A DNA stretch of 64,000 bases from Eledone cirrhosa (lineage: Eukaryota), in the NCBI GenBank assembly GCA_964016885.1, contig OZ024761.1, forward strand, positions 18,724,001-18,788,000, given 5' to 3'. This document shows positions 9,817 through 17,588 of the stretch, piece by piece (the stretch's first letter is position 1; each line of letters opens with the position of its first letter). A model generated the notes under the pieces. That model was not told where the DNA came from, did no database searches, and saw only the letters and a program-made list of their open reading frames with translations. The translations under genes and the position numbers were made by a program.

Positions 9817-9998
9817 TTAATAATAGATTGGAGATGGTAACATTTTCTTAACACCTTTCTGTAGGTATTTCTCCATATTAAAGAAAGTAGAGTCAATGGT
9901 CACAACATCTTCAATATCTACCTCTGCAAGTCGGTCGTGCCACATTAGGTCTTTAGGCATCTGCAGCAACAAATTCGTTATGGATTTTTTTATGTGTA
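9817..9998 (-). CDS. Duplicated terminal exon 5b of the PhnD-like gene (HIKKSITNLLLQMPKD...PSPIYY*), candidate alternative last exon
   Basis: ttattacag acceptor. Same 182-nt length, phase and stop position as exon 5a; 33/60 aa identical; no indels or premature stops. Confidence 0.65.
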
Positions 9999-10376
9999 CT
10001 GTAATAAAGTATTGGGGTGGTGGTTGTGGTAGGGAGAAGAAGAAGAGAGATTAGAAAGTAGAAACAATTATTATTATTATTAATTTATATATATATATGG
10101 AGGCACATTATTATTATTATTAATGTTACGGCGGTGAATTATTATTATTATTAATATTAGGGCGGTGAATTGGCAGTATCGGTAGAGAGTTGGACGCCAT
10201 GTTTTCTAGCATAGTTACGTCCCTTTACAGTCTGAGTTCAAATCCCGCCGAGGTTAACTTTGCCTTTCATCCTTACGGGGTCGATAAAATAAAGTATCAG
10301 TAATGTACTGGGTAATTGCTGGCCTTGTGCCTAAAGTAGAAACAATTATTATTATTATTAATTTATATATATATGT

Positions 10377-10715
10377 GGAGGCACATGGCTTAGTGGTTAG
10401 AGCATTGGCCTTGCAATCGAAAGGTTGTGAGTTCAATTCTCAGACCAGGTGATGTGTTGTTTCTTTGAGCAAGACACTTTATTTCACATTGCTCCAGTTT
10501 ACTCAGCTGTAGAAATGAGATGATAGGGACTGGGGTCCCTATCATTCCACTGCAAAGTGGTCGTGGAGGTGCCACCGCAAAAAAGCACCCAGCACTCACT
10601 GTAAAATGAGGTTGGTATTAGGAAGGGCATCCAGCTGTAGAAATCAAGCCAGAATCAGTTCCCGTCCCACCCTTGCAAGCAGGGAAAGGTGGACGTAAAA
10701 TGAAATGAAAATGAA
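10377..10715 (+). mobile_element. tRNA-derived SINE family B (~340 bp) with CORE-like centre and RTE-like tail
   Basis: A-box TGGCTTAGTGG, B-box GAGTTCAATTC, ttgagcaagacacttta, ggaagggcatccagctgtagaa. Near-identical copies at 25405-25745, 46815-47123, 47520-47797 (+) and 57610-57992 (-). Confidence 0.85.
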
Positions 10716-11178
10716 ATATATATATATATAGTCTTTTACTAGTTTCATTGCTTATTTGACTGAGGCCATGCTGGGCACTGCTGCCTTAAATAGGTTTAGT
10801 TAGGTATATTGTCACCAAGTATTTTGTATATTTTAGCTAGGTACTTATTTGATCTTCCCTCTCCACACACACACACCTTTCTCTCTCTCTCTCTATCTAC
10901 ACACATCTTTCTCTATCTCTCCCTCCACACACGCATATGTCACACTCTCCCTCTCTCTCTCTCTATATATATATATACACCCCTCTTTCTCAATACACAC
11001 TCACATCCCTCACTCTCTCCACACACCTCTCTCTCTCTCTCCACACACAACATGAATCATGAAATAATTTTTGGCATCTAAGATATAGAATGATATATAG
11101 TATGCTCATATTTTCAGGTTTTTTGTTCACTGAACAAATTGTTGCAGTCATGTGTGTGTGTGTGTGTGTGTGTGTGTA

Positions 11179-12068
11179 CAGGGTGTGGACGATATGTGTT
11201 CGCAATTTCAACTGCTAATTTATGCAAATTTTTTTTACTTCCGTTCTCGCTCTTGTCTTCATAAAAACAGTGACTATATTTCCATTATTTATTTTCAGAA
11301 TAATTGATTATGAATAATTTTGAACGTCCAAATTTGTGGAAGAGACACAGAGTTCTTCTTGGAATCCGCGCCAGGAGGACAAATAAGGAAATTTCAGAAA
11401 CTCCCAGAACAACAGGTGGCTCGCTGTCTCATCCAAAGACGTGCCCAGAGTCATGCAGACAAAGTTTCCAGTGACAACATTGGTCTTAGGTGTCGTCAGC
11501 AGTCAAGGTGACGTCATGCCACCCCACTTCTTCCCTGAGGGCCTCAAGCTGAACACCGATGGCTACATCCGCATTCTGAGCGAGGTAGTAAAGCCCTGGA
11601 TCGACCAGGTAGCTGCAAGTAGGCCGTACGTGTGGCAGCAAGCCTCGGCGCCCTGCCATACCGGCCGAAAGACCCAAGCCTGACTGTCAGAGAACTTTGT
11701 CGACCACACTTAACCTGACATCTGGCCTCCCTGCTCGCCTGACTGCAACCCCCTCGACTTCTTTGTGTGGGGTGCAGTGGAATGAGACACCAACAGACCT
11801 AGCTGCAATACGAAAGATGATCTGGAGGCCAGGATCACAAGTGCCTTTAGGGGCCTAAGTCGGGGGACAGTGACGAAGGCCTGTAGCTGGTTCCGAGGCC
11901 GCCTTGAGGCCGTCATCAAAGCCAATGGCAGGTTTATCGAGTGAGATCCAAATAACAAGTCATGAAGACAAACTGACCCAAGTTTGATAAATATATCTTA
12001 AAAAATAAAACTACTGTCTTATTTTTTCCTAGACAGTAATCTTGCAAACAAATATCGTCCGCACCCTG
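11179..12068 (+). mobile_element. Degenerate Tc1/mariner-superfamily DNA transposon, DD37D (maT)-type, internally deleted
   Basis: TIRs cagggtgtggacgatatgtgtt / aaatatcgtccgcaccctg with TA TSD. Transposase remnant WQQ(D>A)SAPCH...WPPCSPDCNPLD with 37-residue spacing and in-frame stops. Confidence 0.85.
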
Positions 12069-14589: not shown

Positions 14590-15270
14590 ATGTCCATATA
14601 TATATATGTGTATATATATATATGTGTATATATATATATATGTATATATATATGTATATATATATATGTATATATATATATATGTATATATATATATATG
14701 TATATATATATATGTATATATATATATATATGTATATATATATATATATATGTATATATATATATATATGTACATATATATATGTATATATATATATGTA
14801 TATATATATGTACATATATATATATATATGTATATATATATATATATATATGTATATATATATATATATGTATATATATATATATGTATATATATATATA
14901 TGTATATATATATATGTATATATATATATATATGTATATATATATATGTATATATATATATATATATGTATATATATATATGTATATATATATATATATA
15001 TATATATATATATATATATATGTATATATATATATGTATATATATATGTATATATATGTATATATATATATGTATATATATATATGTATATATATATATA
15101 TATATATATATGTATATATATATATATATATATATATGTGTATATATATATATGTATATATATGTGTATATATATATATGTATATGTATATATATGTGTA
15201 TATATATATATGTATATATATATATATATGTATATATATGTATATATATATATATGTATATATATATAAT
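14590..15270. repeat. ~680-bp (TA)n/(TATATG)n compound microsatellite
   Basis: Direct inspection. Confidence 0.97.
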
Positions 15271-15699
15271 TAAGTTAAAAATGTACATCTACATATGCAT
15301 ACTGAAATACTAGTGTGTATATGAATACACACACGTATACATATGTAGGTGTACCAAGTCTTTCACTGGTCGCTTTACAGTGAGCGGCCCAGCTATTCTG
15401 TATGTAAACACACAGACAAACCGGTTTTTAGAGTCATACTGGTTTTTCGGGGGAACACCTTCCCCCTATTCTCCAGAAAGCCAGACAAGGAATATTGAAC
15501 TAGTTTCGTTGTTGTTACAACTCATCAGCAATATTTACCTATCTACCGGCCTTTCTGGAGAATTGTAAAAACACATATCGTTATATGCTTTTTCTATGAA
15601 AATTAGTAGTGGGCAGACCAATTTGCATAGAGTGTGAGTACGCACCGGTTCAGCGGAGACGATAAAAACAAATAACGAAACGAAATTAAATTTCGTTTC

Positions 15700-17060
15700 G
15701 TTTGTAACTCACTTTTGTATGACTGGGTCTCCCTCTTCTAGTGTGTTCATGTAGGGGCTCCCATAGGAGCACTGAGCGCAGTGTCAACTCTGAATGTCGG
15801 TGAGCATGCCCAGCCAACTTCAGTCTCCTCTGTGCTACTTTTGGGAGGCTCCCGTACAGCTCTTGAGTTCTTCATTCGCTGTGTATACTGATTAATGTTC
15901 ACAGCCATCCTCAATATTCTTGTGTAGCACCCATCCACCATCTAAGTGAGTTTCTTGGTCAGTGTCCAAGTCTCAGACCCGTATTGTAGCACAGACTCCA
16001 CTGAAGCATTGAAGAGATAGATCTTCAGATCTTTATGAAGGTTCAACTTTCACACCGATCTTAAACTGTGGCATGCTGCCCGCACTTTGCTCTTCTTCTG
16101 AACCATATCATCCTCTGAATTCCCAATCTTTGCTCCCAGATACAAGAAGTGCTCAACCAACTCTAGCAGCTTCCTGCCTACATTCACAATCTTTTGTGGC
16201 TTCTTAATGTTCTCTAGCAGATACTTCGTTTTAATCTCATTCATTCTCAGCCCCACACTCATTGACACAGTCTCCACCTCTCCCTTGCATCAACTCCTCT
16301 GCCTCCTTCACTGTGTTTGTCACCAGAATTATGTCATCAGCTAATTCATCATCGTCATCATCATCATTTAATGTCCGCTTTTCCTTGCTTGCAAGGGTGG
16401 GAAGGGTCCTATTCAGCACAGCATCTCTCCATTTGTCACAGTCCTTCGTCATCTCCTCTGTGAGCTTCAGCGATCTGCGGTCAGCTCTCACCACCTCCAC
16501 CCATGATTTTTGTGGTCTTCCTCTACTGCGTCTTCCTTCCACTGAGATTTCTTGGCATTTCTTTACCCAGAAGTCATCCTCCATGCGCATCACATGTCCA
16601 TACCAATGCAGTCTTCTCTACTGCACACTACAGTTTATCCCTCTTATACACAGTTTCATTCTCAACTCGTCTATGCTTGGTTGTTCACGCACATTGACAT
16701 TGCACATCCATCGGAGCATGCTTGCTTCACTTCAGCATCTGATATCTTTTTAGCCTTAACTCTCCTGCTCTGAGCCAGTGCTACAGTAAAGCCAGAGGCC
16801 TGGTGTTTCTCCAGTGCAAGGCACATACAATAGTCCATTGCGATGATTAAAAAGGTAGGGAACCAATTTATCTCCCTGGAGCACTCCAGCCAGTATCTCA
16901 AAGAACTCTGACATCCTGTCAGGTGTAATGACTCGGGCTCTGGTGTTGGTGTAGAGCAGTGATATCAGGTCCACTATCTTCTTGGGGGTACCATAACCCT
17001 GTAAGATCTTCATCAGGCAGTGACAGTCCACAGAATCAATGACCTTCCTAAAGTCCATTT
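15700..17060 (-). mobile_element. RTE-type LINE 3' fragment with a second RTE 3' fragment nested at ~16346-16731
   Basis: RT motifs DFRKVIDSV, GVLQGDKLVPYLF and ADDI, disrupted. The nested piece (GRRSRGRPQKSW, (GAT)n tail) splits ...ISDAE | LADDI. Confidence 0.8.
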
Positions 17061-17406
17061 TCATATATATATATATATATATATATATATACACATATAT
17101 ATATATATGTGTGTGTAAGTGTGCATACATACACACACACATATATATATATACACACACACATATATATACACACACACACACACACACACACACACAT
17201 ATACATATGTATGTATGGGTTATATTGAATATTGATAATAATATTTGATTCGTTTGTGTATATATGTATGTGTATGTATAAATGAAAGCATTCTCAGTCA
17301 TCACCTAATGAAGCAGCTTTGGTGGCGTGGAAAAGGGAGGGAGGGGGTTTTACAAGCTTTGACAAGAAATTAGAAGAAAAAAAAAAATGGTATAATGTAT
17401 TTTGAG

Positions 17407-17588
17407 TTAATAGTAAGCCGGAGTTGATGCCATTCTCTTAACCTTTTCTTGTAGGATTCTCTCCATACCAAAGAAACTACTGTCGACCTCCACAACATTC
17501 TCAATATCCAGTTCTTGAAGTCGGTTTTGCCACGATGAGTCTTTAGGCATCTGCAGCAACGCATTCTTTATTATTTCCTTGGTCTCGG
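17407..17588 (-). CDS. PhnD-like gene terminal exon 5a (ETKEIIKNALLQMPKD...STPAYY*)
   Basis: ttgttacag acceptor, 182 nt, phase 1, TAA at 17409-17407. Confidence 0.8.

What the first reader, a model, noticed from the sequence alone, without database searches (positions are those of the whole stretch)
9817..17588. Two interchangeable last exons: duplicated C-terminal exon with intact frame but heavy amino-acid divergence
Seen: exons 5a (17588-17407) and 5b (9998-9817) share acceptor phase, 182-nt length and the YY* ending. They differ at 27/60 residues, while I count only about 6 synonymous changes among the identical codons. I saw no copies of exons 1-4 between them. Inference: alternative terminal exons giving two isoforms with different C-terminal segments, possibly under diversifying selection. 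A decayed copy at this divergence would be expected to carry indels or stops, as the co-duplicated non-coding flanks do.
Basis: partly seen in the sequence, partly recalled or inferred. Interest (0 to 1): 0.75.

Follow-up and report, generated by a model that had tools for sequence, protein, structure and literature searches.

The report
Duplicated last exon diversifies binding protein
An octopus-type gene for a bacterial-style small-molecule-binding protein carries two tandem copies of its last exon, both are spliced onto the same upstream exon, and their protein sequences have diverged faster than the non-coding DNA copied with them, likely because selection favoured two versions with a predicted shared pocket but different back surfaces.

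Summary
Real. Exons 5a (17588-17407) and 5b (9998-9817) are 182-nt, in-phase, stop-free last exons of a single-copy, minus-strand, 280-codon gene of the PhnD/AioX/ArrX binding-protein fold. One public run (X2, kind not on record, behaving as RNA) holds contigs for both junctions, exon4-5a and exon4-5b; a DNA-like run shows introns there. The copies come from a tandem duplication of about 7 kb. They group together against Octopus sinensis (UFBoot 92), so the event looks lineage-specific. Both are constrained: no indels against 28 in 781 co-duplicated non-coding columns, and differences at 3 of 19 family-conserved versus 24 of 41 variable positions. The exons differ at 30% of bases, the non-coding blocks at 14.5%. 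Omega is 1.3-2.7: significant with most non-coding yardsticks, not with in-exon synonymous sites alone. The pocket residues that could be mapped lie in exons 1-4. The mechanism, a C-terminal swap from tandem exon duplication, is known; a young case with probable positive selection in an unstudied family is new. The scan noted this gene family before on other DNA (e1-7506749), but that note does not mention a duplicated exon.

The parts
24574..24763 (-). Coding exon 1, from the first in-exon ATG (190 nt). An acceptor at 24770 precedes it in frame, so an upstream exon probably exists.
   Evidence: 63-67% identical to Octopus orthologues
23073..23217 (-). Coding exon 2 (145 nt)
   Evidence: AG/GT boundaries and frame
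21570..21715 (-). Coding exon 3 (146 nt); PF12974 positions 96-134; holds the Ser-x-Ser/Thr anion-binding loop
20359..20538 (-). Coding exon 4 (180 nt); PF12974 positions 145-202; its donor is shared by 5a and 5b
17407..17588 (-). Last exon 5a, coding part (proximal; probably the major isoform)
   Evidence: exon4-5a junction in a 440-nt X2 contig, depth figure 95.6
9817..9998 (-). Last exon 5b, coding part (distal; probably the minor isoform)
   Evidence: 358-nt X2 contig covers 9671-9998 and continues with the exact last 30 nt of exon 4, depth figure 8.86
17277..17406 (-). 3' flank of 5a, homologous to 9693-9816 (27 mismatches in 124 columns, 4 indels)
   Evidence: both flanks lie within the X2 contigs' lengths
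13625..13987 (-). Co-duplicated non-coding block B below 5a, with a candidate AATAAA at 13756
   Evidence: full-length match only to 7488-7860 in G000
7488..7860 (-). Block B below 5b, with candidate AATAAA at 7612 (same place in the alignment as 13756) and at 7715
10720..11200 (-). Co-duplicated block C below 5a: two unique segments around a simple-repeat stretch, homologous to 5290-6190
5290..6190 (-). Block C below 5b; lowest traceable end of the second copy of the duplicated unit

Best explanation
A tandem duplication of about 7 kb copied the last exon of a single-copy PhnD/AioX-fold gene, exon 4 is spliced to either copy, and the two copies were likely driven apart at their variable positions by positive selection while their structural core stayed constrained. 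Shown: gene structure, tandem duplication, both junctions in one run, frame conservation, constraint at family-conserved columns, and exon divergence above that of the co-duplicated non-coding DNA. Inferred: (1) 5b is reached by read-through of the 5a poly(A) site and skipping of the 5a acceptor, with 5a the major form; (2) both transcripts are translated into 280-residue two-lobed binding proteins; (3) the mapped pocket residues lie in exons 1-4, while exon 5 encodes two helices after the second crossover strand, the extra strand, the C-terminal helix and the YY tail, so the isoforms would bind the same small ligand but differ in partner contacts, opening dynamics or stability; (4) the duplication postdates the split from Octopus sinensis/vulgaris. 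The protein is most likely a soluble intracellular binder or sensor of a small anion. Its ligand is untested and may have changed, because the family's pocket His and Tyr are Asn and Phe here.
For: Junctions: X2 contigs stop at the 5b acceptor with no depth in the intron and continue with the exact last 30 nt of exon 4; a second contig joins the start of 5a to the exon-4 end; X1 shows intron at both places. Exons 1 and 4 are single-copy. Constraint: 0 indels in 182 nt against 28 in 781 non-coding columns, chance 0.0015; differences at 3 of 19 conserved versus 24 of 41 variable columns, Fisher p=0.002, columns scored on 9 outgroups; both keep W240, D256 and the terminal YY found in 9 of 9 outgroups. 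Excess change: 55/182 versus 113/781, p=2e-6; second codon positions alone 17/60, p=0.008; only 5 of 55 differences are CpG-type. Omega with the non-coding yardstick is 1.4-2.7, with p<0.05 in 12 of 16 settings. Omega at variable codons is 2.6 from the exon alone, p=0.048, and 0.42 at conserved codons. Fold: profile hits ArrX 3e-35, AioX 1e-22, PtxB, PhnD; model of the O. sinensis orthologue has mean pLDDT 92 and its best Foldseek matches are ArrX and AioX. AioX pocket residues (PMC5908839, passages) were mapped by motif onto exons 1-4.
Against: Splicing evidence is one sample of one study, contigs only, with the run's kind not on record. The 5b contig has 30 letters on the exon-4 side, one short of the tool's 31-letter rule for a bridge. 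Contig depth cannot rank isoforms, so 95.6 versus 8.86 is a hint only. In-exon omega is not above 1 significantly in 4 of 4 settings (1.34-1.93, p=0.17-0.48), nor with the nearest 3' flank alone (4 of 4, p=0.06-0.24). A Nei-Gojobori count gives 0.79. In-exon dS (0.33) is about twice the non-coding distance (0.16, p=0.09), so the exon may mutate faster. The non-coding blocks were picked by alignability, and block B may be constrained 3' UTR. 16 codons differ at two or more bases, and a compensating indel pair can explain codons 46-48, both of which inflate omega. Exon 5 is also the most variable exon among non-duplicated orthologues (58-72% versus 48-56% differences). 5b replaces an Ala invariant in 9 of 9 outgroups with Leu. 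Relative-rate tests between 5a and 5b are not significant (4 versus 8, p=0.39). No protein-level evidence exists, and AioX Tyr88 was not mapped.
Confidence: 0.55

Rival explanations
1. Both exons are spliced and were kept in frame, but their divergence reflects relaxed constraint on an already fast-evolving C-terminal segment plus a locally higher mutation rate. 5b is a tolerated minor isoform without its own function.
For: In-exon omega does not differ from 1. Exon 5 is the most variable exon in all three orthologue pairs. The depth figure of 5b is about one eleventh that of 5a. 5b has the longer branch (0.50 versus 0.27) and the A230L change at an invariant column. A neutrally drifting copy escapes stops with chance 0.12-0.41.
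Against: Relaxation cannot push amino-acid-changing sites above the neutral rate, yet second codon positions differ at 28% against 14.5% in non-coding DNA. Zero indels and the avoidance of conserved columns argue for ongoing constraint on both copies.
Confidence: 0.33
2. The duplication is older than the non-coding distance suggests. Gene conversion or constraint kept the flanks alike while the exons drifted under ordinary purifying selection.
For: The blocks range from 0.10 to 0.26 in distance, and block B carries a shared AATAAA and may be constrained. In-exon dS is higher than the non-coding distance (p=0.09).
Against: Five separate blocks spread over 5-7 kb, split by later repeat insertions and carrying 28 indels, all lie below the exon's distance. 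Block C alone still gives omega about 2 (p=0.001-0.02). In-exon maximum-likelihood omega is above 1, not well below it. 5a and 5b group together against O. sinensis.
Confidence: 0.1
3. 5b is a dead copy, an assembly artefact, or the last exon of another gene.
For: None of 6 annotated O. sinensis/O. vulgaris isoforms in the cluster has a second last exon.
Against: Three DNA-like runs of one sample cover 5b in one contig. Exons 1 and 4 are single-copy. A contig from a second sample joins exon 4 to an unchanged 5b coding sequence.
Confidence: 0.02

Closest known systems
Tandem exon duplication-derived C-terminal substitutions (77 of 236 curated human events; PMC8373072 and PMC9741552, passages read)
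   Same: A duplicated 3' coding exon gives homologous alternative C-termini through alternative last-exon and poly(A) use; conserved structural positions are kept.
   Different: The papers describe most such events as ancient with mostly conservative substitutions; 'positive selection' does not occur in the main text of PMC9741552. This case appears lineage-specific, with amino-acid change at or above the neutral rate.
ArrX / AioX arsenic-oxyanion binding proteins (PDB 6x6b, 6esk; PMC5908839, passages read)
   Same: Best sequence-profile and fold matches; same two-lobed fold with the C-terminal extension of a sixth strand and a helix; Ser161 and Asp210 equivalents kept.
   Different: No Cys106 equivalent (Asn here), His192 is Asn, Tyr131 is Phe, Ser163 is Thr; no signal peptide at the first Met; intron-containing animal gene; added YY tail.
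PhnD / PtxB phosphonate and phosphite ABC-transporter binding proteins (PF12974, TIGR01098, TIGR03431)
   Same: PF12974 hit over cut-off on exon 4; same fold.
   Different: Orthologues score below the TIGR01098 and TIGR03431 cut-offs (74-96 versus 112 bits; 65-78 versus 261 bits); no export signal; no ABC partner seen among the window's ORFs.
Uncharacterized invertebrate PF12974 family (O. sinensis LOC115224559, O. bimaculoides LOC106874892, Argonauta, Sepia, Artemia LOC136028351)
   Same: Orthologue: 143 of 220 residues identical to O. sinensis over exons 1-4, same length, terminal YY.
   Different: Annotated relatives show one kind of last exon; here there are two.

Membership tests
Tandem exon duplication-derived C-terminal substitution | Two homologous 3' coding exons in tandem from a local duplication | tested here: met
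Tandem exon duplication-derived C-terminal substitution | Each is spliced to the same upstream donor in frame | tested here: met
   both junction contigs in run X2; one sample; 30 letters on the exon-4 side for 5b
Tandem exon duplication-derived C-terminal substitution | Each exon has its own poly(A) site | tested here: inconclusive
   candidate AATAAA at 13756 and 7612 in the duplicated block; contigs cannot show RNA ends
Tandem exon duplication-derived C-terminal substitution | Both isoforms exist as protein | not testable with these tools
   no proteomics or ribosome profiling available
Invertebrate PF12974 (PhnD-like) family | Orthology and terminal YY motif | tested here: met
   YY in both 5a and 5b
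AioX/ArrX arsenic sensors | Fold of the PhnD/AioX periplasmic-binding type | tested here: met
   tested on the O. sinensis orthologue
AioX/ArrX arsenic sensors | Pocket Cys106 with Tyr131, Ser161, Ser163, His192, Asp210 | tested here: not met
   Asn67, Phe102, Ser133, Thr135, Asn163, Asp181 here, mapped by motif
PhnD (TIGR03431) / TIGR01098 ABC binding proteins | Score above the curated cut-off | tested here: not met
   3 of 3 cephalopod orthologues fall below both cut-offs
PhnD (TIGR03431) / TIGR01098 ABC binding proteins | Export signal | tested here: not met
   hydropathy proxy shows no signal-like stretch after the first Met; an unseen upstream exon could add one
Positively selected duplicate | dN/dS significantly above 1 | tested here: inconclusive
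   significant in 12 of 16 settings with a non-coding yardstick, 0 of 4 with in-exon synonymous sites only

The most novel reading that the evidence does not exclude
A young, octopod-specific alternative last exon was fixed by positive selection and works as a tissue-regulated switch. It gives a bacterial-type solute-binding protein two interchangeable partner-facing backs on one unchanged pocket, and so marks the C-terminal helix and YY tail as the signalling surface of an unstudied intracellular sensor family of invertebrates.
Probability: 0.25. Interest if true: 0.72.

Novelty: new member of a known kind. Interest (0 to 1): 0.5.

Why it matters
Curated tandem-exon substitutions are described as mostly ancient and conservative, so their early evolution is rarely seen. 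Here the co-duplicated non-coding DNA is still alignable and gives an internal clock, which makes the question of whether adaptive change follows exon duplication directly testable. The two natural isoforms also offer a built-in swap experiment for finding what the C-terminal helix and the invariant YY tail do in an invertebrate protein family for which my searches found no paper.

Tried and rejected
Pfam on exons 5a and 5b alone gave nothing useful (one hit at E=0.014, below cut-off). The word-index homologue search with exon 4 found none among 4 candidates; exon 1 found one. The ESM Atlas search with exon 1 gave hits under 0.9, leads only. The run search listed no holder on record as RNA; that blank is no evidence, and X2 is read as RNA from its spliced contigs. 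Homodimer prediction of the O. sinensis orthologue returned no verdict (0.23 against a mark of 0.32). The cysteine-rich N-terminal extension of Octopus isoforms was not found in the window upstream of exon 1. No further diverged copy of exon 5 was found in G000 (only the best candidates are scored). Literature: 'phnD'+'octopus' gave 2 unrelated papers; a five-term phosphonate/HGT/mollusc search gave nothing on this family among 9 listed; the three locus ids gave 0 papers; the PF12974 search was swamped, and none of the 20 listed contained the term; one search listed no cephalopod case among 20 of 46. Supplements were not searched. No single lay of reads across both exons and exon 4 was made; the junctions were read from loose ends on the 5b stretch. 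Earlier scan notes near this place or like exon 4 in sequence: none.
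Full report
Observation. Both stretches are 182 nt, follow a TTACAG acceptor and end YY-TAA. Coding exons 24763-24574, 23217-23073, 21715-21570 and 20538-20359 have AG/GT ends, and either last exon completes an uninterrupted frame of 280 codons. The two differ at 55 of 182 bases and 27 of 60 residues, with six single synonymous changes and one AGT/TCT serine pair. Exons 1-4 occur once in the window. Exons 1 and 4 and the PF12974 profile match only this locus in the 3.0-Gb genome G000. 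Exon 5 has three matches: 5a, 5b and a fragment on contig C4.

The gene. Exons 3 and 4 hit Pfam PF12974. Orthologues are annotated as uncharacterized proteins in Octopus bimaculoides, O. sinensis, O. vulgaris, Argonauta, Sepia and Artemia. Exons 1-4 are 65% identical to O. sinensis (77 of 220 differ), while O. sinensis and O. bimaculoides are about 83% identical, so the genome is inferred to be another octopod. An alignment of 19 sequences chosen from those hits matches ArrX (3e-35), AioX, PtxB and PhnD. An AlphaFold model of the O. sinensis orthologue (mean pLDDT 92) has ArrX and AioX as its best fold matches. Three cephalopod orthologues fall below the TIGR01098 and PhnD cut-offs. The AioX pocket is Tyr88, Cys106, Tyr131, Ser161, Ser163, His192 and Asp210 (PMC5908839, passages). 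Six of these seven were mapped by motif, to Asn67, Phe102, Ser133, Thr135, Asn163 and Asp181, all in exons 2-4; Tyr88 was not mapped but precedes Cys106. Exon 5 covers helices 221-236 and 238-246, strand 249-254, helix 257-270 and a low-confidence tail, which fits the C-terminal extension described for AioX. The protein works like a small-anion binding protein but is a member of neither the AioX nor the PhnD family. No signal-like stretch follows the first Met, although an in-frame acceptor precedes it.

Splicing. Four runs of one study hold 5b, none with its kind on record. X1, X3 and X4 (one sample, about 1.4 Gb of contigs each) run through the acceptor into the intron. X2 (another sample, 88 Mb) has a 358-nt contig that covers 9671-9998 and has no depth beyond it. 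Its 30 loose letters are exactly the last 30 bases of exon 4. At 80% likeness a second X2 contig of 440 nt was laid; its loose end shows the start of 5a joined to the same exon-4 end, whereas X1 shows intron there. Both contigs fit a 30-letter overhang, as expected if the assembly graph branches at the exon-4 donor (inference). Limits: one sample, contigs only, 30 letters is one short of the tool's bridging rule, and the depth figures 95.6 (5a) and 8.86 (5b) only hint that 5b is minor.

Origin. Collinear non-coding blocks show a tandem duplication of about 7 kb: near flanks, block B (13625-13987 and 7488-7860, with no other full-length match in G000) and block C. The unalignable remainder is mostly LINE-like, SINE-like, transposon-like and simple-repeat DNA, by my reading. 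Block B carries an AATAAA at the same place in both copies. 5a and 5b share 10 residues against O. sinensis and group together with UFBoot 92 on 60 columns (O. bimaculoides and O. vulgaris were left out of that tree). Six of 6 O. sinensis and O. vulgaris isoforms have one and the same last exon. Their genomes could not be searched, so lineage specificity is probable, not shown.

Selection. Both copies are constrained. The exon has no indel, against 28 in 781 non-coding columns (chance 0.0015; many of those indels lie in simple runs). Differences fall at 3 of 19 columns conserved in 9 outgroups and at 24 of 41 variable ones (p=0.002). The terminal YY, present in 9 of 9 outgroups, is kept in both. 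Absence of stops alone is weak (chance 0.12-0.41). The exon is also more diverged than its co-duplicated non-coding DNA: 30% versus 14.5% (p=2e-6), 25% after dropping the first 17 nt and codons 46-48 (p=0.002; p=0.08 without block B), and 28% at second codon positions. Codon likelihood gives omega 1.34-1.93 from the exon alone (never significant) and 1.39-2.73 with non-coding yardsticks (p<0.05 in 12 of 16; the four failures use the 124-column 3' flank alone). Variable codons give 2.6 (p=0.048) and conserved codons 0.42. Against this: Nei-Gojobori gives 0.79, in-exon dS is about twice the non-coding distance (p=0.09), exon 5 is the fastest exon in non-duplicated relatives too, and only two sequences are compared. 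Neither copy is significantly faster.

Verdict. This is a real alternative last exon from tandem duplication, a known mechanism (77 C-terminal cases in human; PMC8373072 and PMC9741552, passages). I put the two spliced endings at about 0.95, continued constraint on both at about 0.85, and positive selection at about 0.55-0.6. That the isoforms differ in partners or dynamics rather than in pocket is inferred from structure mapping and is untested. My searches found no paper on the family or locus; supplements were not searched. An earlier scan note (e1-7506749) describes the same family in another genome and agrees with the family assignment that I tested here.

Noticed in passing
L002:1477-1623 (G000:C4, near 345589700); source window 17386-17532: A 147-nt piece of exon 5a and the start of its 3' UTR, 100% identical, sits antisense inside the 3' end of a young LINE copy. 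It replaces about 30 nt found in other copies, with short microhomologies at the joins. It looks like a very recent templated insertion; an assembly error is not excluded.
   Followed up: partly
window 20359 donor; proteins P0001-P0003, P0061, P0011: Three of 3 O. bimaculoides isoforms and one Logan cuttlefish-type protein end in a short unrelated tail right after exon 4, as if reading into the intron; a Sepia model diverges part-way through exon 5. This is either an annotation gap or a recurring truncated ending.
   Followed up: no
window 17410-17415 and 9820-9825: A terminal Tyr-Tyr is invariant in 9 of 9 outgroups scored, from cephalopods to Artemia, and absent from the four bacterial-type relatives in the alignment. 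Its role is unexplained.
   Followed up: partly
window exons 2-4 (residues 102, 135, 163): Octopod proteins have changed pocket positions that other family members keep: Tyr to Phe and Ser to Thr here and in Octopus, His to Asn here and His to Tyr in Argonauta. This suggests a ligand change in octopods.
   Followed up: partly
window 24770 acceptor; proteins P0003, P0004: Octopus isoform X1 models carry a cysteine-rich, basic N-terminal extension that resembles a lipid-anchor segment (resemblance recalled, not tested). No match was found upstream in the window.
   Followed up: partly
window 44221-45312 and 51151-52353 (+): Two long single-frame C2H2 zinc-finger arrays (363 and 400 aa ORFs).
   Followed up: no
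window 31855-34989: A 3.1-kb tandem array with a 55-nt period and about 96-97% identity; a 55/110-nt array also lies at 27141-27679.
   Followed up: no
window 3546-4851 (-), 11290-12060, 15750-17050 (-): Mobile-element remains: a reverse-transcriptase plus GIY-YIG-like element (Penelope-type, by motif recall), a Tc1/mariner-like transposase piece, and RTE-like LINE pieces; the last two lie between 5a and 5b.
   Followed up: no
window 17604-17645: A (CCA)n expansion separates the pyrimidine tract from the 5a acceptor, making that spacing 21 nt longer than at 5b. It might influence the choice between the acceptors.
   Followed up: no
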